43,998 bases of DNA from Myxococcota bacterium (GTDB lineage: Bacteria; Myxococcota_A; UBA9160; PR03). Shown in pieces: positions 8,328 through 42,724 of this stretch. The DNA is taken from positions 1 through 43,998 of the forward strand of contig JBFIML010000037.1 in NCBI GenBank assembly GCA_041611735.1, written 5' to 3'. A model generated the notes under the pieces. It had not been told where the DNA came from, did not search any database, and was given only the letters and a program-made list of their open reading frames with translations. The translations under genes were made by a program, and so were the position numbers. Every line of letters starts with the position of its first letter. The first letter of the stretch is position 1.

Positions 8328-9578
8328 TCAGGGCTTCATGACGGCGGCCACCCGGTAGTCGGCGGGTGCCGGTCGCGGCGGCTCGCGCCGCGCCATTGCC
8401 TTCTCGATGGCGGGCGCCAGGCGCTCCTGCTTGCGCTGCTCGCGTTCGTCCTCCCGCTCCCGGAACTCCGGCATCACCTCGCGGGCGAAGAGCTCCAGGG
8501 ACTCGCAGATGTGCTCGTGGCGGTTGCGGCCCGCCTGGGACACGAAGATGACCTGGTCGATGCCGACCTCCGCGTAGCCGCGCAGCAGGGTCCGGATCTG
8601 CTCCGGGGTCCCGATGGCTCCGCGCAGCGCCGCCACCGGGCCGCGTCGCATCTGCGCGGCGAGCGGCTCGCCGGTGCGGGCGGCGACGCTGCGATCGAAG
8701 CCGAGGGCGGCGCGCTTGCGGGCGAACTCGTCGGCGATGTTGGTGAGCCCGGGCCGGTGCTGGCCGAACACGTAGTAGTGGGCCAGCGAGAAGCCGAAGA
8801 AGTGCGCGCCGTCCAGGCCGCGCTCGATGGCCTCCTCCTCGCTTGCGTGGCAGAGCAGCGGGAGCACCACCGCGAGGTTCGCGTTCACCGCGAAGCCCGC
8901 GGGCACGCACGCGTCGGAAGCCAGGGTGGCGTAGTAGTCGTCCACCCAGGTCTTCGCCTCACCGGATTCGACGAAGGCGAAGGACAGCGCGCCGATGCCC
9001 TTGGTGGCGGCCAGGTGGATCGTCTCCCGGCGGCTGCACGCGACCCAGAGCGGCGGATGGGGCTTCTGGAGCGGCCTGGGCAGCACCGCCCGCGGCGGCA
9101 GGTCCAGGTGGCGGCCCCGGTAGCCGGCGAAGGGCTGCTCCACGAACATGCGCGTCACCGCATCCAGCGACTCCGCCCACTGCTCGCGCTTCTGCTCGCG
9201 TTCGATGCCGAAGCCCCCGAGCTCGAGCTCCGCGGACGACTCGCCGGTTCCGAACTCCACGCGTCCGTCCGAGACCAGGTCGAGGCTGGCGATCCGCTCC
9301 GCCACCCGGAAGGGGTGGTTGTAGGCGGGCGGGAGCTGAACGATCCCGTGGCCCAGGCGGATGCGCCGGGTGCGCTGGCTGGCCGCCGCCAGGAAGACCT
9401 CCGGGGCCGAGGAGTGGCTGTACTCCTCCAGGAAGTGATGCTCCACCTCCCAGACGCAGTCCAGGCCCAGGCGGTCCGCCAGCTCCACCTGCTCGAGCGC
9501 CTCCCGGTAGAGGCGGTGCTCGTCGTCGTCGCTCCACGGCCGCGGCAGCTGGTGCTCGTAGAAGATGCCGAACTTCAC
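8328..9578 (-). CDS. LLM class (luciferase-like) flavin-dependent oxidoreductase
   Basis: From GTG 9578: KFGIFYEHQLPRPW, WEVEHHFLEEYSHSSAPE, RVAERIASLDLVSDGRVEFGTG, PRPLQKPHPPLW. Confidence 0.92.
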   Translation of the reverse strand: MKFGIFYEHQLPRPWSDDDEHRLYREALEQVELADRLGLDCVWEVEHHFLEEYSHSSAPEVFLAAASQRTRRIRLGHGIVQLPPAYNHPFRVAERIASLDLVSDGRVEFGTGESSAELELGGFGIEREQKREQWAESLDAVTRMFVEQPFAGYRGRHLDLPPRAVLPRPLQKPHPPLWVACSRRETIHLAATKGIGALSFAFVESGEAKTWVDDYYATLASDACVPAGFAVNANLAVVLPLLCHASEEEAIERGLDGAHFFGFSLAHYYVFGQHRPGLTNIADEFARKRAALGFDRSVAARTGEPLAAQMRRGPVAALRGAIGTPEQIRTLLRGYAEVGIDQVIFVSQAGRNRHEHICESLELFAREVMPEFREREDEREQRKQERLAPAIEKAMARREPPRPAPADYRVAAVMKP

Positions 9579-36292: not shown

Positions 36293-36372
36293 GCGGGTTC
36301 CATTACCACAGCCGCGCGGTGCCGGCCGGCGTCGGGCCTGCTACACCATCGGGTCCTTCGGAGGGTGATCCC

Positions 36373-37686
36373 ATGCACCGACTCGTAATCCGCCCCAGGC
36401 TCCTCGCGCTGCTGCTGGCACTCGCGCCGCTGGCCTGCGGGCCCGGCGAGGAGACCCCGCCGTCCGCCGCGCCCTCGGCGGCCGGCGATCCCACCGGGAC
36501 CCCGGACACCCTCCCGAACGGGCTGCTGGTGGCCCTCGCCCAGTTCGAGATCTCTCCCGAGGGCAAGGTGCTTCCGAAGCCGAAGGCGGCGCGACTCGAG
36601 ATCCTGCGGCGGCAGGGCGGGGCCTGGCAGACCAGGGTCCTCGAAGACTCCGACAGCAACGTCTTCCACAAGGCGATGGTCTACCAGCCGCCGGGTCGCC
36701 CGTCGGGCATCCTGACCCTGGGCGGCAGCGCCGCCGCCCTCAAGCTCTGGCGGCCGGGCCCCGATGGCCTCGTCCCGGAGACGCTCTGGACCCGGGATTT
36801 CGGCGGACGCTTCTCCCGCATGCGCGACGCGGAGGCGGCGCCGCTCTACGGCGCCGGCGGCCGCGACCTGGCCGTGGCCACCCATGACCAGGGCGTCGTC
36901 GCCATCGTGCGCCCGCAGGACGGCGGCGGCTGGGAGGTGCGCGAGATCGACCTGGAGAAGGACACCTTCGTCCACGAGATCGAGATCGGCGACCTGGATG
37001 GTGACGGGGCGCTGGAGGTCTACGCCACGCCCAGCGAGCCGAACCGCCTGGACGGGACGCCGCAGCCGGGCAAGGTGGTGCGCTACGTCCCGGCACGCAA
37101 CGAGGGCCGCACGGTGGTGGCCGACCTGGGCAACCGCCACGCCAAGGAGATCCTGGTCGCCGACGTGGACGGGGACGGCCGTGACGAGCTGTACGTGGCG
37201 GTGGAGGCGGAGACCGAGGGCAGCGGGACCGACCTGCGCCTGGTGGCGCCGGTGGAGATCCGCCGTTACGAGGCGGATACGGATCCCGCCGAGGGACGGG
37301 TCATCGCCCGTCTGCAGGACCGGCTGTGCCGGTTCCTGACCGCCGGCGACCTGGACGGGGACGGGCGGCGCGAGATGGTGGCGGCGGCCTTCAAGAGCGG
37401 CATCTGGCTGCTGCGTCCGGGCTCGGACCCGAGCGCGCCCTGGAAGGTGGTCTCCATCGATCGCGATTCCTCGGGCTTCGAGCACGCGGCGCTGCTGGCG
37501 GACCTGGACAAGGACGGCATCGACGAGCTGTACGTGGCCAGCGACGACCAGGGCGAGATCCGGCGCTACGTGGAGCGCGACGGCCGCTTCGCCCGCACGG
37601 TGATCCACCGCCGCGAGCCGGCGGGCTCGGCCTTCACCTGGAACCTGATGCCCGTCCCCGTGGAGCTGCTCGCGGCGCAGCCCTGA
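36373..37686 (+). CDS. FG-GAP/VCBS repeat beta-propeller lipoprotein
   Basis: From ATG 36373: lipobox LAC; four DxDxDG Ca-binding-type repeats (DLDGDG, DVDGDG, DLDGDG, DLDKDG). Confidence 0.8.
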   Translation: MHRLVIRPRLLALLLALAPLACGPGEETPPSAAPSAAGDPTGTPDTLPNGLLVALAQFEISPEGKVLPKPKAARLEILRRQGGAWQTRVLEDSDSNVFHKAMVYQPPGRPSGILTLGGSAAALKLWRPGPDGLVPETLWTRDFGGRFSRMRDAEAAPLYGAGGRDLAVATHDQGVVAIVRPQDGGGWEVREIDLEKDTFVHEIEIGDLDGDGALEVYATPSEPNRLDGTPQPGKVVRYVPARNEGRTVVADLGNRHAKEILVADVDGDGRDELYVAVEAETEGSGTDLRLVAPVEIRRYEADTDPAEGRVIARLQDRLCRFLTAGDLDGDGRREMVAAAFKSGIWLLRPGSDPSAPWKVVSIDRDSSGFEHAALLADLDKDGIDELYVASDDQGEIRRYVERDGRFARTVIHRREPAGSAFTWNLMPVPVELLAAQP

Positions 37687-37720
37687 GGCGTCGGGGCTGA
37701 GCCGGCCGGGAGGGCTGCAC

Positions 37721-38151
37721 GGCCGGGCGGGAGGGCTCGCTTCCGGGCCTTGCGCTGGCGGCGGTGCGCGACGGGGCGGATGGCCCGGCCCCCGGGCGGC
37801 CGCGGCGACGCCGGCGGGAGCGACCGCGGGTGTCCCTCGGCGGGGCGTCGTCCCGGATCGTGGGTCGGTCGCGGGGGCGCGTCGGCCCTGCACCCGAGCC
37901 CTGCCGCCCGGCTGCGAGCGTCGGTAGCTACTCCGGCGGCAGCATGCGCCGGCATCCAAGGGTCGGGCGAGATGGGCTTGGGTGGAGCGCCGGCGTGCCC
38001 CCGCAAGCGAGTTCCAGCCGAGGGAACGTCGCGCCAGGGGACAACCCCGGCCACTCTCCACCGTCGCCGCGTTCGTCGCGCTGCGCGGGAGGGCTTCCCG
38101 TCGCGCGCCGGCAGCCGAGCCAGGCGCGGAAGCCAACCCATCCGCCCGGCC
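37721..38151. repeat. Long imperfect palindromic element, copy 1 (~431 nt)
   Basis: Ends GGCCGGGCGG / CCGCCCGGCC are complementary; 5' arm (~37721-37912) aligns to the reverse complement of the 3' arm (~37962-38151); directly repeated at 38166-38588. Confidence 0.9.
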
Positions 38152-38165
38152 CCGGTCTCCTCAAA

Positions 38166-38588
38166 GGGCCGAGCCGGCCGAGGGGGCTCGGCTTCCGGGC
38201 CTTGCGCTGGCGGTGGTGCGCGACGGGGCGGATGCCCGGCCCCCGGGCGGCCGCGGCGACGTCGGCGGGAGCGACCGCGGGTGTCCCTCGGCGGGGCGTC
38301 GTCCCGGATCGGGGGTCGGTCGCGGGGGCACGTCGGCCCTGCAGCGAGCCCCTCCCGCCCGGCTGCGACTGTCGCTTGCGGTGCTCGCCGTCATGGGACC
38401 GGGCGGCATGGGATCGGGTGGAGCGCCGGCGTGCCCCCGCAAGCGAGTTCCAGCCGAGGGAACGTCGCGCCAGGGGACAACCCCGGCCACTCTCCACCGT
38501 CGCCGCGTTCGTCGCGCTGCGCGGGAGGGCTTCCCGTCGCGCGCCGGCAGCTGAGCCAGGCGCGGAAGCCAACCCATCCGTTCGGCCC
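38166..38588. repeat. Long imperfect palindromic element, copy 2 (~423 nt)
   Basis: Block 38416-38580 matches 37980-38144 at 164/165 positions by manual comparison; block 38191-38368 closely matches 37739-37917; ends GGGCCGAGC / GTTCGGCCC pair. Confidence 0.9.
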
Positions 38589-38624
38589 GACGGTCTTGAA
38601 AGCCGAGCCGGGGGTGCGAGCGAC

Positions 38625-38963
38625 CTAGCCCGGCGGCCAGGAGAGGGGGCGGCCGCCGAGCAGGTGCAGGTGCAGGTGGAAGACGCTCTGGCCCGCGGCG
38701 GCCCCGTTGTTCACCACCACCCGGTAGTCGGTGAGCCCGAGCTGCGCCGCCACCCGGCCCGCCACCCGCAGCAGGTGGCCGAGCAGCTCCGTGTCCGTTT
38801 CTTCGGCCTCCGCCAGCCGCGCGATCGGCTTGCGCGGGATCACCAGCACGTGGGTGGGCGCCTGGGGGTTCAGGTCGTGGAAGGCGAGGGACCGGTCGTC
38901 TTCGTAGACGAGCTGGGCCGGCGCCTCGCCCCGGGCGATCTTGCCGAAGATCGTGTCGCCCAT
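38625..38963 (-). CDS. hinT: Histidine triad (HIT/HinT) nucleotide-binding protein
   Basis: From ATG 38963: [44 protein letters not shown]. Confidence 0.93.
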
Positions 38964-38968
38964 GCCGC

Positions 38969-39775
38969 TCAGCCTCCTTGCGCGGCGGGCCGGGAGGGCG
39001 CCGCCGCCATGCGCCGCATCGCGGCGTGGGCCACCTCGATGCACGCCTCCATGTTGCGATCCAGGTCGAGGGCCGAGGGCCCCGGCCAGGGCGTGCGGTC
39101 CGACACCACGCAGATGCAGCCGGCCCGCAGCCCGAACAGCCCCGCCAGCGTGAGGATCGCGCCGGCTTCCATCTCGCAGTTCAGGACCTGCGCACGCTGG
39201 AGGTCCCGGATGCGCTCCTCCAGGGCGCGCGTCCAGTAGCCGCCAAAGCTCATGGAGCGCAGCGAGCCGTCCGCTCCCAGCACGGCATTGCGCGCGTAGA
39301 AGGCGTCAAGCGACCAGGTGATGCCCGCGTGCCAGCGCAGGCCGCGCGCCTCGGCCGCCTCGGCCAGGGCGGTCACCAGGCGCCAGTCCGCCACCGCCGG
39401 GTACTCGGGGACCACGTAGCTGCGCGTGGTGCCATCGTCGCGCACCGCCCCGGTCGTGATCACCAGGTCCCCGAGCTCCACGTGGGGTGCCAGGCCCCCG
39501 CTGTTGCCGATGCGCAGGAAGGTGTGGGCGCCGAGCTTGGCCAGCTCCTCCAGCAGGATGGCTGTGCCCGGAGCGCCGATGCCGGTGGAGGCGGCGGACA
39601 CCGCGACTCCGTCACGCTCACCGGTGACGATGCGATACTCCCGCACCCGGCACACCTCCCGGACGTCCTTCCAGCCGGCGGCGATGCGCTCCACCCGGGC
39701 CGGGTCGCCGCACAGGAAGACGTGGGGAGCCACGTCGCCAGGGCGGCAGCCGGTGATGGGCTGGGCGTCGCTCAC
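38969..39775 (-). CDS. Nucleoside phosphorylase (uridine phosphorylase-like)
   Basis: From GTG 39775: [40 protein letters not shown]. Confidence 0.9.
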
Positions 39776-39991
39776 GGACCCTCTCCCCTGCGGGAAACGC
39801 AGCGTGCCCGACCGGCAGAATGGGTGCAACCACGGGCGCCTGCGGGCCGGCGGGCTCAAGTTCCGGCCGTGACGCCCGACCGATGGGGGCCGGAGTGGCC
39901 GGGGCTCGGGTTGTCAGCCTCGGAGCCTCAAGCTAAGGATGGCGCCTTCGCGCCAAACGGGCGCGCATCCCCGTGGGGGGCAGAGGGGCTG

Positions 39992-42724
39992 GTGTCAAAA
40001 GCACTCGTCATCACCGAGAAGCCGAGCGTTGCCCGTGACATCGCCAGCGCCCTGGGCGGCTTCCAGGAGCAGGACGGCTGGCTCGAGAGCGACCGCTACG
40101 TGGTGACCTGGGCGGTGGGTCACCTGCTCGAGCTGCTCGAGCCTGAGGAGATCGACCCGGTCTACAAGCGCTGGACCCTCGACACCCTCCCGATCCTCCC
40201 CGACGCGTTCCAGCTCAAGCCGAAGCGTGGCCACAGCGAGCGGCTGCGCACGATCAAGAAGCTCCTCGGACGCAAGGACGTGAGCGACCTCGTGAACGCC
40301 TGCGACGCGGGTCGTGAGGGCGAGCTGATCTTCCGCGAGATCGAGCAGCATCTCGGGTCGCAGCTCCCGGTGCGGCGCCTGTGGCTGCAGTCCATGACCG
40401 AGGAGGCGATCCGGGACGGCTTCGACCGGCTGCGCCCGGGCGAGGAGCTGGAGGGTCTGGCGGCCGCCGCCGAGTGTCGCGCCGTCTCCGACTGGCTGAT
40501 CGGGATGAACGCGACCCGCGCGCTCACGAAGCGGCTGCGTGGCCGTCGCGAGCGCGGCGCCTGGTCGGCGGGGCGCGTGCAGACGCCCACCCTGGCCCTC
40601 CTGGTGGATCGCGAGATCGAGGTGCTCGCGCACGTGCCGCGCGCCTACTGGCGCGTGACCGGCGTCTTCGACCACGAGGGGCAGTCCTACGAGGGAGCCT
40701 GGTTCGATCCGGGCTTCCAGCCGGGCGCCGACGAGGAGGCCCGCGACGACCGCCTCTTCGACGAGGCCCGGGCGCGCGCCATCGTGGAGGCGGTGCAGGG
40801 ACGTCCCGGCACCGCCGAGGAGACCCGCAAGCCGTCGCGGGAGTCGCCGCCGCCGCTCTTCGACCTGACCAGCCTGCAGCGGGAGGCCAATCGCCGCTTC
40901 GGCTGGTCGGCGCGCCGCACGCTCTCGGCGGCCCAGCGCTGCTACGAAGGCCACAAGATCCTGACCTATCCCCGCACCGACTCCCGCTGCCTCCCGTCGG
41001 ACTACCGGGCCACGGTGCACGGCGTGCTGGAGGCCTTCTCCCGGGCCCGCGCCAACGGGGCCCGCGGCGAGGAGGGGCGCGAGCCCGTGGCCGACTACGC
41101 GGTTGCCGCCCGGCGGCTGCTCGACGACGGCCTCGAGAACGAGAGCCGCATCTTCGACGACGCGGGCATCTCGGACCACTTCGCCATCGTCCCGACCGGG
41201 AAGCTGCCCCGGCAGGCCCTCTCGGGCGACGACCGGCGGCTGTTCGATCTGGTGGTGCGGCGCTTCCTGGGGGCCTTCCATCCGCCGGCCATCTGGGAGC
41301 GCGTGGAGCGGGTGACCCAGGTGGCGGAGCACCGCTTCCGCAGCCGGGCGCGCACCCTCACGACGCCTGGCTGGCGGGCCGTGCTGGAGAGCTCGAGCGA
41401 CGGCGAGGAGGCCACCGCCCTGCCGCCGCTGCGGGCCGGCGCCGCAGAGGCCTCGGGGGTGGCGGTCGCGAACCGGCAGTCGGAGCTCGTCGCCGAGCAG
41501 ACCCGGCCGTCCCCGCGCATTACCGAGGCACGTCTGCTCTCGCTCATGGAGAACGCGGGCCAGCAGATCGACGACGAGGACCTGGCGGCGGTGCTGCACG
41601 AGAAGGGGATCGGGACCCCGGCCACGCGGGCCGAGATCATCGAGAACCTGATCGCCAAGGGCTACGCGGTACGCATGGGCAAGGCGCTGCGCCCCACGGC
41701 CAAGGGCATCCGCCTGATCGACATCCTGCGTCGCATCCACGTGGATCGCCTGGCCTCGCCGGAGCTGACCGGCGAACTCGAGCAGCACCTGCTCGACGTG
41801 GAGCGCGGCCGCCGCTCGCGCGAGGCGATCATGGAAGAGATGAAGTCCTATGCGCGGGAGATCGTGGAGCACACCAAGGGCTTCGAGTACGAGGACCTCT
41901 ACAAGGGGGAGCCGCCGCTGGGGCCCTGCCCGCGCTGTAGCCGGCCGGTGGTGGAGCAGGCCTGGTTCTATCGCTGCGAGCCAGATCCCGGTGCCGAAGA
42001 GGACTGCCCGGTGCGCATCTGGAAGGACACCTCCGGGCGCTACCTGGACCGGGCCACCGTTACCGCGCTGCTGCGCGACGGCCGCAGCGGGGTCCTGGAG
42101 GGGTTCGCGGCCCGCAACGGTCGCCCCTACCGGGGGGTGCTCGAGATGGACCGGGAGCGTTGGAGCCCCAAGGTGGTGCCCGAGAGCTGGGAGGAGGGGG
42201 AGGCGGCCCGGGCCGAGCCGGAGTACGAGGTCGACCCGGAGCCCCTGCAACGCTGCCCCTTCGAAGAGGAGTGCCAGGTCATCGAGTCGCCCACCCAGTA
42301 CGTGTGCGAGCGCAAGCTCAAGGAGGCCGAGCTCGGCAAGGACCCGGAGGGGCCCAGGAGCTGCGGTTTCGTCCTGCCGCGCACCGTCTGCAAGCGGGAG
42401 ATCACGCGGGAGGAGGCGCTGGTGTACCTGGCCGGCGGGCGCACCGAGCTCCTGACGGACTTCACCTCCCGCTACGGGCGTCCTTTCTCGGCGACCCTGG
42501 TCCTGAAGAAGAACGGACGCCACGGCTTCGAGTTCCCGCCGCGGGCGCCCCGGGGCGGTCGGAAGGCGTCGAGCGACGACGGCGAGGCCTCCCCGAAGCC
42601 CGCCGCCAAGGGCCGGGGCGGCGCGAAGGCCGCCGCCGGGGGGAAGAAGACGCGCCCGCGGGTGCGGACTGCCGCGAAGCGCCCGCGCAAGAAGGCCGCG
42701 AAGAAGAAGTCCCAGCCGGACTGA
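39992..42724 (+). CDS. topB: Type IA DNA topoisomerase (topoisomerase III-like) with C-terminal repeats and basic tail
   Basis: From GTG 39992: ITEKPSVARDIA, NACDAGREGELIF, GRVQTPTL, LTYPRTDS (catalytic Tyr), DHFAIVPT, GIGTPATRAEIIE. Confidence 0.88.
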   Translation: MSKALVITEKPSVARDIASALGGFQEQDGWLESDRYVVTWAVGHLLELLEPEEIDPVYKRWTLDTLPILPDAFQLKPKRGHSERLRTIKKLLGRKDVSDLVNACDAGREGELIFREIEQHLGSQLPVRRLWLQSMTEEAIRDGFDRLRPGEELEGLAAAAECRAVSDWLIGMNATRALTKRLRGRRERGAWSAGRVQTPTLALLVDREIEVLAHVPRAYWRVTGVFDHEGQSYEGAWFDPGFQPGADEEARDDRLFDEARARAIVEAVQGRPGTAEETRKPSRESPPPLFDLTSLQREANRRFGWSARRTLSAAQRCYEGHKILTYPRTDSRCLPSDYRATVHGVLEAFSRARANGARGEEGREPVADYAVAARRLLDDGLENESRIFDDAGISDHFAIVPTGKLPRQALSGDDRRLFDLVVRRFLGAFHPPAIWERVERVTQVAEHRFRSRARTLTTPGWRAVLESSSDGEEATALPPLRAGAAEASGVAVANRQSELVAEQTRPSPRITEARLLSLMENAGQQIDDEDLAAVLHEKGIGTPATRAEIIENLIAKGYAVRMGKALRPTAKGIRLIDILRRIHVDRLASPELTGELEQHLLDVERGRRSREAIMEEMKSYAREIVEHTKGFEYEDLYKGEPPLGPCPRCSRPVVEQAWFYRCEPDPGAEEDCPVRIWKDTSGRYLDRATVTALLRDGRSGVLEGFAARNGRPYRGVLEMDRERWSPKVVPESWEEGEAARAEPEYEVDPEPLQRCPFEEECQVIESPTQYVCERKLKEAELGKDPEGPRSCGFVLPRTVCKREITREEALVYLAGGRTELLTDFTSRYGRPFSATLVLKKNGRHGFEFPPRAPRGGRKASSDDGEASPKPAAKGRGGAKAAAGGKKTRPRVRTAAKRPRKKAAKKKSQPD

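What the first reader, a model, noticed from the sequence alone, without database searches (positions are those of the whole stretch)
37721..38588. Tandem pair of ~430-nt rod-like hairpin elements with compensatory and G-U-compatible changes between copies
Seen in sequence: the 940-bp gap between two convergent genes (FG-GAP lipoprotein and HIT) holds two direct copies of a unit, 14 nt apart. Each unit's 5' arm is an imperfect reverse complement of its 3' arm over ~190 nt (e.g. GGCTTCCGGGCCTTGC...GCGCGACGGG versus rc GGCTTCCGCGCCTGGC...GCGCGACGGG, 29/38 identical; GCGGGGGCACG pairs exactly). The arms are highly conserved between copies (3' block 164/165), while the apical loop is strongly diverged. 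Several differences preserve pairing. The terminal stem is GGCCGGGCGG/CCGCCCGGCC in copy 1 but GGGCCGAGC-GG/CCGTTCGGCCC in copy 2 (G-C to A-U and G-C to G-U). C37762 versus T38214 sits opposite G, and G37879 versus A38330 sits opposite T. Near the loop, CGCCCGGC/GTCGGGCG becomes CCGCCCGG/CCGGGCGG. These wobbles favour the + strand. Inference: the fold is under selection or is propagated as a folded single strand. Options are a large structured ncRNA, a giant REPIN/MITE-like non-autonomous element, or (low prior) a viroid-sized rod-like RNA fixed as a head-to-tail dimer. No transposase is nearby and I recognise no Rfam family.
Basis: partly seen in the sequence, partly recalled or inferred. Interest (0 to 1): 0.85.

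Follow-up and report, generated by a model that had tools for sequence, protein, structure and literature searches.

The report
Orphan tandem pair of giant hairpins
Two adjacent copies of a 430-base DNA stretch that can fold back on itself fill the gap between two ordinary genes in one marine myxobacterium; the structure is real, but it occurs nowhere else and nothing yet shows that it does anything.

Summary
The 938-nt non-coding gap between a convergent FG-GAP gene and a HIT gene contains two head-to-tail units (37721-38152 and 38166-38590; TRF period 436, 2.0 copies). Each unit folds as a roughly 430-nt imperfect rod, with z -4.5 to -7.1 against shuffles on both strands. Short contigs from other sequencing runs confirm the unit1-to-unit2 junction and both unit-specific tips.

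The element is an orphan. Its own genome has only these 2 copies. No homologue turned up in 40 relatives by BLAST, in 150 genomes of the order by covariance model, in plasmids or phages, in two metagenome pattern scans, or in 5.8 billion proteins via a spurious ORF. There is no Rfam family, ribozyme, RAYT/Y1 transposase or adjacent RT. In family relatives the next gene starts within about 250 nt of the FG-GAP stop.

Covariation has no power with two copies (262 of 500 shuffles do as well), and the plus-strand wobble excess is not significant (13-14 G:T against 8 A:C).

The striking feature is uneven divergence: the arms are 97-99% identical and the tips 55%. Two arm differences are polymorphic for the other copy's allele, which points to gene conversion.

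Best reading (0.45): a lineage-specific quasi-palindromic DNA repeat under concerted evolution, acting at most as a passive transcription barrier. A sibling long-hairpin RNA (0.25) and a non-autonomous mobile element (0.2) remain open.

The parts
36319..37686 (+). FG-GAP repeat protein gene (455 aa), left flank; stop codon at 37684-37686
   Evidence: Pfam FG-GAP_3 E 8.1e-17 and FG-GAP E 5.5e-11. Strong GC3 periodicity up to about 37690. Orthologues in 13 of 16 family genomes.
37687..37720 (+). Left junction, with the first copy of the boundary motif GCYGAGCCGG (37696-37705) and the first half of a local 21-nt duplication (37701-37716)
   Evidence: (families D4, D6).
37721..37892 (+). Unit 1, 5' arm (84% GC; G 85, C 60, A 8, T 19)
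37893..37979 (+). Unit 1 tip (87 nt), the diverged apical region
37980..38152 (+). Unit 1, 3' arm (77.5% GC), pairs with 37721-37892
38153..38165 (+). Spacer between the units. The second boundary motif, GCCGAGCCGG, follows at 38168-38177, inside the start of unit 2.
   Evidence: The junction is covered by 147-nt contigs in X1 and X5.
38166..38343 (+). Unit 2, 5' arm (83% GC)
38344..38415 (+). Unit 2 tip (72 nt). Homologous to the unit 1 tip in direct orientation but only 59 of 89 columns identical, with a 15-nt indel.
38416..38590 (+). Unit 2, 3' arm (75% GC)
38591..38624 (+). Right junction. It resembles the inter-unit spacer plus the start of a third unit (CGGTCTTGAAAGCCGAGCCGG), with the third boundary motif at 38602-38611.
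38625..39044 (-). HIT-family gene (139 aa), right flank, convergent with FG-GAP
   Evidence: Pfam HIT E 3e-30. A HIT gene also lies convergent downstream of FG-GAP in G005, G007, G009 and G013.

Best explanation
This is a lineage-restricted, non-coding, quasi-palindromic DNA repeat that is neither a gene nor a dispersed mobile family.

Inferred history:
1. The short gap between FG-GAP and HIT, which in some relatives carries an ordinary terminator-like hairpin, acquired a long inverted duplication. The likely routes are template switching or fold-back synthesis, or a one-off insertion.
2. The roughly 450-nt segment, flanked by the 10-nt motif GCYGAGCCGG, was tandemly duplicated by recombination or slippage at that microhomology.
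3. Since then the long identical arms have been kept alike by gene conversion between the two direct copies. The tip, the base and the spacer carry indels that block conversion, so they drift.

Likely activity: passive. Transcripts entering from either convergent gene would fold into a roughly 190-bp imperfect hairpin. That would act as a 3'-end barrier or insulator between the two genes.

What is shown: the structure, its uniqueness, its absence from relatives, the uneven divergence, and the polymorphisms that match the other copy.
What is inferred: the origin, the gene conversion and the barrier role.
For: 1. Non-coding: no codon periodicity and no Pfam hit on any of the 5 ORFs tested across it. 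A 1-nt indel between the copies breaks any shared frame.

2. Orphan:
- Only 2 copies in the own genome.
- 17 of 40 relatives gave only 22-86-nt GC-rich matches with E >= 1e-7; the other 23 gave none.
- 0 of 150 other genomes of the order match covariance model R1.
- No match in plasmids or phages.
- Exact-pattern scans found 0 in genome contigs and 0 in metagenome contigs. A 20-mer scan found 12 loci, all chance: matches extend at most 50 nt.
- The ORF translation hits only itself among 5.8e9 proteins.

3. Derived state: in all 12 family loci whose FG-GAP 3' flank could be read, the next coding region starts within about 250 nt. In the four loci with HIT synteny the gaps are about 20-250 nt. 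One X7 contig joins 37668 to 38627 with 26 other letters between.

4. Relatives carry terminator-like hairpins at the same spot: G006 has a roughly 115-nt hairpin and G016 an 18-bp stem.

5. Uneven divergence: arms 308 of 314 columns identical, tip 51 of 92, bases 20 of 35. Mismatched and bulged positions are conserved as well as the paired ones.

6. Two of the 5 differences in the 5' arm are polymorphic in other runs, and each variant is the other copy's allele. 37811 C>T lies on a contig anchored in the unit-1 left flank (X6). 38312 G>T lies on a 318-nt contig spanning the unit-2 tip (X5).

7. The boundary motif GCYGAGCCGG occurs at all three junctions.

8. The surrounding genes are housekeeping: HisRS, arginine decarboxylase, PNP_UDP_1 phosphorylase and topoisomerase.

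9. Template switching is a described mutational mechanism that creates reverse-complement repeats and apparent compensatory changes without selection (PMC8794818; abstract and introduction read).
Against: 1. Tandem direct repeats with arms of 150 nt or more, 97-99% identical, should collapse readily by unequal recombination. Yet the tips are 45% diverged, and both copies are seen in runs from several studies. If the duplication is old, persistence of two copies hints at selection to keep both.

2. The gap is GC-richer (78.5%) than the window (73.5%), and the 5' arms reach 83-84%. That is unusual for junk intergenic DNA.

3. All 8 one-sided changes in the consensus structure keep a standard pair on the + strand. 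Both G/A differences lie opposite U rather than opposite C. My own rough estimate of chance for that is about 0.04, made after the structure was chosen.

4. No source sequence for the arms was found, either in the flanks (z -0.9 to 0.8) or elsewhere in the genome. The origin step is therefore pure inference.

5. No U-tract terminator is detected.
Confidence: 0.45

Rival explanations
1. Two sibling long-hairpin non-coding RNAs, most likely transcribed from the + strand. Each has a conserved double-stranded scaffold and a variable apical domain that gives it a different specificity. Analogies recalled from memory, not tested here: tandem sibling sRNAs with conserved ends and variable centres, and the rod-shaped 6S and Ms1 RNAs.
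For: - Strong fold.
- More G-U pairs on the + strand (17-18) than on the - strand (7-11) in the MFE structures.
- All 8 one-sided changes are wobble-compatible on the + strand.
- Conserved arms with diverged tips.
- Both tips still fold as extensions of the rod.
- Two copies persist despite the recombination risk.
- High GC.
Against: - No promoter-like or terminator-like site.
- No Rfam match at E <= 1.
- No homologue in any other genome, so there is no covariation.
- The + strand wobble excess is not significant in a strand-symmetric alignment.
- z-scores do not favour one strand.
- Unpaired positions are conserved as well as paired ones, which structure-only selection does not predict.
- The tips have no better than chance complementarity to the rest of the genome (best 17-21 nt, E >= 0.012).
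- A canonical 6S RNA exists elsewhere, at C13:49441-49619.
Confidence: 0.25
2. A non-autonomous mobile element (a fold-back or MITE-like element, or a site-specific integrating element) that landed twice in tandem at one target, GCYGAGCCGG. The conserved arms would be the cis-acting parts and the tips a free internal region.
For: - It is an insertion relative to the relatives.
- Size is under 500 nt, with terminal inverted repeats.
- The same 10-nt direct repeat sits at all three junctions.
- Conserved ends with a variable centre is the usual MITE pattern (PMC10969869, passages read).
- The genome does host a separate roughly 175-nt palindromic dispersed family, with matches at about 9 other places.
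- Relative G007 has a 96-nt repeat family with 102 matches, two of them in this same gap.
Against: - No copy elsewhere in the own genome, although other dispersed repeats did assemble.
- None in 40 + 150 related genomes, plasmids, phages or metagenome scans.
- No transposase or integrase among the neighbours tested.
- No Y1/RAYT in the genome, which is 95% complete.
- It is GC-rich, not AT-rich.
- The junction motif is also explained as part of a 2.1-copy tandem period.
Confidence: 0.2
3. A DNA copy of a viroid- or obelisk-like rod-shaped circular RNA, fixed as a head-to-tail dimer.
For: A rod-like fold of viroid size and a head-to-tail arrangement.
Against: - No self-cleaving ribozyme or any other Rfam family at E <= 1 on either strand.
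- It is embedded in chromosomal DNA between housekeeping genes, in DNA runs from several studies.
- The two 'monomers' differ by 45% in the tip and in the junctions, unlike a rolling-circle multimer.
- The only RT in the genome is on another contig.
- No coding periodicity that would indicate an Oblin-like ORF.
Confidence: 0.02
4. An assembly or amplification artefact (a chimeric palindrome or a falsely duplicated repeat).
For: Repeats are error-prone in metagenome bins. Logan contigs break inside the repeat, and no single piece spans it.
Against: - Artefactual palindromes are perfect, but these arms are only 65-78% complementary.
- The element lies inside a 44-kb contig.
- The unit junction 38117-38263 is covered with 0 differences in runs of two studies, and both tips are present in a third.
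- The contigs of the shared arms have about 2.5 times the depth of the flanks in X1 (19.1-19.5 against 7.8-7.9), as expected for two collapsed copies. Depth is only a rough guide.
Confidence: 0.02

Closest known systems
Prokaryotic MITEs and palindromic intergenic repeats (ERIC, Correia, Chunjie, QMITE; review PMC10969869, passages read)
   Same: Non-coding, under 500 nt, intergenic, with terminal inverted repeats. The transcript would fold into one long stable stem-loop. Short direct repeats lie at the ends. The ends are conserved and the centre varies.
   Different: Only two copies, adjacent to each other and in one species. There is no related IS or transposase. The element is very GC-rich (78-84%) rather than AT-rich, and complementarity runs the whole length (about 190 bp) rather than 4-30-bp TIRs.
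REPINs (REP doublets mobilised by RAYT transposases; recalled, no paper read here)
   Same: A hairpin-forming inverted pair of sequence in an extragenic position; the folded single strand is thought to be the substrate.
   Different: REPINs are about 100 nt and occur in tens to hundreds of copies alongside a RAYT gene. Here the units are 430 nt with 2 copies, and no Y1_Tnp/RAYT match exists in the genome.
Quasi-palindromes created and 'corrected' by replication template switching (PMC8794818, abstract and introduction read)
   Same: A DNA-level mechanism that makes reverse-complement repeats and multi-base apparent compensatory changes. It explains a hairpin without invoking RNA-level selection.
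   Different: Described events are short (stems of a few to tens of bases). A 190-nt arm would need an unusually long switch or many successive events, and no donor or intermediate is visible here.
Rod-shaped regulatory RNAs (6S RNA; Ms1 of actinobacteria; recalled)
   Same: Long, largely double-stranded imperfect hairpins with internal loops. Some bacteria carry two paralogues.
   Different: Those RNAs are 180-300 nt and conserved across phyla. No Rfam 6S match occurs at this locus, and a canonical 6S gene lies elsewhere in the genome. No evidence of transcription here.
Viroids, obelisks and other viroid-like circular RNAs (recalled; search listing only)
   Same: A rod-like predicted fold of a few hundred nucleotides; the head-to-tail dimer is reminiscent of rolling-circle intermediates.
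   Different: Those are RNA replicons, many with ribozymes or an ORF. This is chromosomal DNA without ribozyme hits, and its two units are unequal.

Membership tests
MITE | Length typically under 500 bp and no coding capacity | tested here: met
   Units of 432 and 425 nt. No codon periodicity and no Pfam hit on the ORFs across it.
MITE | Terminal inverted repeats | tested here: met
   GGCCGGGCGG / CCGCCCGGCC at the ends of unit 1. The 55-nt terminal arms are 78% complementary.
MITE | Flanking direct repeats (target-site duplication) | tested here: inconclusive
   GCYGAGCCGG occurs at all three junctions. It is equally explained as part of a 2.1-copy tandem period. The motif occurs 6 times in the window against 2.35 expected.
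MITE | Multiple dispersed copies in the genome or in relatives | tested here: not met
   Only 2 adjacent copies in G000. 0 of 150 other genomes of the order by covariance model. Only short GC-rich matches in 17 of 40 relatives.
MITE | A related autonomous IS or transposase that could mobilise it | tested here: not met
   No transposase domain in the neighbouring genes tested. tblastx of the unit finds nothing but itself and low-complexity matches. A genome-wide IS census was not done.
REPIN / REP | A RAYT (Y1 HUH transposase) in the genome | tested here: not met
   PF01797: 0 matches in G000 (95% complete). The same search found it in 6 of 14 control genomes.
REPIN / REP | Tens to hundreds of short (about 100 nt) copies | tested here: not met
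   Two copies of about 430 nt.
Viroid-like / obelisk-like RNA | Rod-like secondary structure | tested here: met
Viroid-like / obelisk-like RNA | Self-cleaving ribozyme (hammerhead, hairpin, HDV-like, twister) or an Oblin-like ORF | tested here: not met
   cmscan of 37000-39300 at E <= 1 gave only a chance snoRNA match outside the element. No coding periodicity.
Viroid-like / obelisk-like RNA | Exists as a circular RNA replicon | not testable with these tools
   No RNA run is listed as a holder. That is no evidence either way.
6S RNA (RF00013) | Match to the family covariance model | tested here: not met
   No match at the locus. The genome's 6S gene is at C13:49441-49619, 53 bits.
Retron msr-msd | Reverse transcriptase gene immediately adjacent | tested here: not met
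   The neighbours are FG-GAP and HIT. The single RVT_1 match is on contig C32.
Any Rfam 15 family | Covariance-model match | tested here: not met
   (4227 families, both strands, E <= 1).

The most novel reading that the evidence does not exclude
The two units are genes for a previously unseen kind of large bacterial RNA: sibling roughly 430-nt rod-shaped hairpin RNAs. Each has a sequence-conserved double-stranded scaffold of about 150 bp and a fast-evolving apical domain of 70-90 nt that sets its specificity. Both are kept in tandem by selection in one marine Myxococcota lineage.
Probability: 0.15. Interest if true: 0.7.

Novelty: new variant of a known kind. Interest (0 to 1): 0.33.

Why it matters
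If it is only DNA, it is a clean natural example of three things. A long quasi-palindrome and its tandem copy survive in a compact bacterial genome. Gene conversion keeps the arms alike while the hairpin tip drifts. And apparent structure-preserving changes arise without any RNA gene, which is a useful caution for screens that use such changes to call ncRNAs.

If it is transcribed as a discrete RNA, it would be an unusually long rod-shaped bacterial RNA with no known family.

It also causes a practical error. Gene callers turned it into a 282-aa 'protein' that has no relatives among the 5.8 billion proteins searched.

Tried and rejected
- RNA evidence: no RNA holder is listed among 9 holding runs in 5 studies. 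This says nothing about expression.
- Run X6 has no cover over unit 2, and run X5 none over the unit 1 tip. Holes in Logan contigs prove nothing, so no one-copy allele is claimed.
- The X7 joint 37668->38627 (26 letters between, side 36) may come from a different species. It is used only as support for a short ancestral gap, not as an exact empty site.
- Exact-pattern scans: a 52-mer in genome contigs gave 0. A 24-mer in metagenome contigs gave 0. A 20-mer in metagenome contigs gave 12 loci, all chance.
- BLAST and nhmmer of the units against 113 fetched loci gave only short GC-rich hits; the best nhmmer E was 0.015.
- Covariance model R1 covers only the inner 170 columns, because the whole unit exceeds the 400-column limit. 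It matched nothing outside G000 in 151 genomes, with strict filters.
- The arms are not derived from the flanking genes or from any other gene of the genome (tblastx).
- Tip inversion between the copies is rejected: the direct alignment scores z 6.1 and the inverted one z 2.8.
- The tips as antisense guides: no match beyond chance.
- The G007 96-nt repeat family is not present in G000.
- Sigma-70 promoter and U-tract terminator scans found 0 sites. These consensus scans fit Myxococcota poorly.
- Literature: five full-text searches found no description of such an element in Myxococcota. Subscription journals are not covered, so 'not in print' holds only for that library.
Full report
WHAT IS THERE

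The window is contig C37 of a 4.09-Mb, 118-contig, 72% GC genome bin. Record titles of its relatives place it in the Myxococcota, and the runs that hold it are labelled marine, sediment and soil metagenomes.

An FG-GAP-repeat gene (36319-37686, +) and a HIT-family gene (38625-39044, -) converge on a 938-nt gap. Both genes show the usual GC3 periodicity of about 95%. Between roughly 37700 and 38600 all three codon positions lie between 70 and 92% GC, so the gap is not coding. None of the five long ORFs that the GC-rich sequence leaves open across it has a Pfam match.

Tandem Repeats Finder reports one array, 37722-38588, period 436, 2.0 copies, 90% matches. BLAST gives 89% identity between the units.

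Each unit is an imperfect palindrome. The 55-nt ends are 78% complementary, and the whole unit aligns to its own reverse complement at 66% identity.

THE FOLD

Each unit folds as a single rod with small internal loops.
- + strand: -313.2 and -284.4 kcal/mol, z -7.10 and -4.45.
- - strand: -288.9 and -271.0 kcal/mol, z -6.29 and -5.04.
None of 100 dinucleotide shuffles folds as well in any of the four runs.

A minus-strand self-BLAST of the whole genome left 8 local inverted repeats after de-duplication. This one is by far the longest self-overlapping one; the next is 173 nt.

It is also not an assembly artefact. 147-nt contigs from runs of two studies cover the unit1-to-unit2 junction (38117-38263) without a difference. 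A run from a third study holds both unit-specific tips.

HOW THE TWO COPIES DIFFER

Divergence between the copies is very uneven:

| Segment | Identical columns |
|---|---|
| 5' arm | 148 of 153 |
| 3' arm | 160 of 161 |
| Tip | 51 of 92 (with a 15-nt indel) |
| 5' base | 14 of 25 |
| 3' base | 6 of 10 |

Arms against tip give Fisher p = 3e-24. The tips are still homologous in direct orientation (59 of 89 columns in a dedicated alignment, z 6.1) and are not inverted (z 2.8).

The motif GCYGAGCCGG stands at 37696, 38168 and 38602, that is, at all three junctions. The sequence after unit 2 resembles the inter-unit spacer plus the first bases of a third unit.

Copy 1 carries a local 21-nt duplication at its 5' base (family D6). 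Its terminal stem therefore uses a different 5' strand from the positional homologue in copy 2.

IS THE PAIRING UNDER SELECTION?

RNAalifold on the two units gives 155 consensus pairs. 146 never vary, 8 vary on one side (all G-C/G-U or A-U/G-U) and 1 varies on both sides, in a 3-bp mini-hairpin in the tip. In the shuffle control 262 of 500 shuffles reach the observed covariation. Two sequences give no power.

The + strand MFE has 17-18 G-U pairs and the - strand 7-11. In a strand-symmetric alignment of each 5' arm with the reverse complement of its 3' arm, the counts are 13-14 G:T against 8 A:C appositions (p 0.29-0.38).

The other one-sided changes depend on the pairing register.

There is one point against selection on structure alone. 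The mismatched and bulged positions are as well conserved between the copies as the paired ones.

WHERE ELSE IS IT? NOWHERE FOUND.

- Own genome: only the two units, by BLAST with word size 7.
- 40 relatives: 17 gave only 22-86-nt GC-rich matches (best E 1e-7) and 23 gave nothing.
- A covariance model of the inner 170 columns (the full unit exceeds the model size limit) matched only G000 among 151 genomes of the order.
- Plasmid and phage collections: no match.
- Pattern scans: 0, 0, and 12 chance loci.
- The 292-aa ORF across the element hits only its own gene-caller product (282 aa) among 5.8 billion proteins.
- Rfam at E <= 1 gives nothing on either strand, so no ribozyme, 6S or other known RNA.
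- The genome has no Y1/RAYT transposase. Its one reverse transcriptase is on another contig. It has a normal 6S RNA gene elsewhere.
- The neighbours are housekeeping genes.
- The arms resemble neither the flanking genes nor any other part of the genome at the protein level.
- The tips have no more than chance complementarity to the genome.

THE ANCESTRAL STATE

13 of 16 family genomes have the FG-GAP orthologue. In the 12 loci where its 3' flank can be read, the next coding region begins within about 250 nt. In four of them it is the convergent HIT gene, with gaps of about 20-250 nt. Some relatives carry ordinary terminator-like hairpins there: a roughly 115-nt hairpin in G006 and an 18-bp stem in G016.

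The 938-nt gap is thus a derived state of this lineage. No genome of the same genus is held, so the event cannot be dated.

WHAT IT MOST LIKELY IS

The uneven divergence needs explaining. There are three options:
- A recent duplication with hyper-mutable tips.
- An old duplication whose arms are homogenised by gene conversion.
- An old duplication whose arms are under strong sequence-level selection.

Tip, bases and spacer have all diverged to a similar degree (55-77% identity), which favours an old duplication.

Two of the five differences in the 5' arm are polymorphic in other runs, and in each case the variant is the other copy's allele. 37811 C>T lies on a contig anchored in the unit-1 flank, and 38312 G>T on a contig spanning the unit-2 tip. 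That is what ongoing gene conversion predicts.

I therefore favour, at 0.45, a lineage-specific quasi-palindromic DNA repeat under concerted evolution. Its hairpin may have arisen by template switching or fold-back synthesis, a mechanism documented to create reverse-complement repeats and apparent compensatory changes (PMC8794818, abstract and introduction read). Its duplication used the 10-nt junction motif. Any activity would be passive, as a large bidirectional 3'-end barrier between convergent genes.

The origin, the conversion and the barrier role are inferences.

WHAT SPEAKS AGAINST THIS READING

Long identical direct repeats should collapse, so the survival of two old copies hints at selection. 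The element is GC-richer than its genome (78.5% against 73.5% for the window). Every one-sided change keeps a + strand pair.

For these reasons a pair of sibling long-hairpin RNAs stays at 0.25.

A non-autonomous mobile element stays at 0.2. In its favour, the junction repeats, the conserved ends and the variable centre fit the MITE pattern described in PMC10969869 (passages read). The genome also has a separate 175-nt palindromic family, and relative G007 has a 96-nt family with 102 matches that also occupies this very gap. Against it, a mobile family with two adjacent copies in one species and none anywhere else is hard to credit.

The viroid-like dimer and the artefact readings are each put at 0.02.

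VERDICT

This is a genuine, unusual, orphan structure. It is not a member of any known RNA or repeat family, and it is best filed as a new variant of the known kind 'hairpin-forming intergenic repeat'. Interest is moderate to low (0.33) until there is evidence of transcription or of orthologues.

Noticed in passing
L025:2872-3070 (genome G007, contig C275, about 8593-8790): In relative G007 the same FG-GAP/HIT gap holds two tandem units of a roughly 96-nt hairpin-forming repeat. That repeat has 102 matches across the G007 genome, mostly in head-to-tail arrays with a period of about 95 nt. It looks like a REP/BIME-like or MITE-like family. It is absent from G000.
   Followed up: partly
G000:C2:114413-114587 (outside the window); also C4:33977-34149, C13:43403-43577, C2:4165-4271, C25:22715-22940, C50:4956-5057, C19:17879-17982, C30:10209-10306, C24:39145-39201: A dispersed, roughly 175-nt palindromic repeat family in the window's own genome. 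It has long, near-perfect terminal inverted repeats, and its copies are 86-96% identical. It is MITE-like and unrelated in sequence to the 430-nt units.
   Followed up: partly
window 37750-38628 (+): A gene caller has turned the hairpin pair into a 282-aa 'protein' (P0001). It is the only hit of the ORF translation among 5.8 billion proteins. With no codon periodicity, it is almost certainly a spurious gene call.
   Followed up: yes
window 38153-38624 in runs X1 and X5: Logan contigs of the arms shared by both units have about 2.5 times the depth of the flanking unique contigs (X1: 19.1-19.5 against 7.8-7.9). In X5 a 318-nt contig that includes the unit-2 tip has depth 19.2 against 5.2-11.8 in the flanks. 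This is compatible with two copies or more, or with strain mixtures. Depth is not a copy number.
   Followed up: no
G000:C32:1020-1631 (outside the window): This is the genome's only RVT_1 reverse-transcriptase match (116.8 bits). It has one in-frame TAG and lies 1 kb from a contig end. Its type (retron, group II intron or DGR) was not determined.
   Followed up: no
window 38978-42724 (+) and 38969-39859 (-): The long + ORF with topoisomerase domains overlaps the PNP_UDP_1 phosphorylase gene on the other strand. The Toprim domain starts only at residue 343. The real topoisomerase start is therefore probably near 40000, and the listed ORF start is an artefact of GC-rich open frames.
   Followed up: no
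L024 (G006) and L026 (G016), first 150 nt after the FG-GAP stop: Relatives carry hairpins directly after the FG-GAP stop. G006 has a roughly 115-nt hairpin with an 18-bp basal stem, and G016 a perfect 18-bp GC stem. These look like terminator hairpins at the position where G000 has the giant pair.
   Followed up: partly
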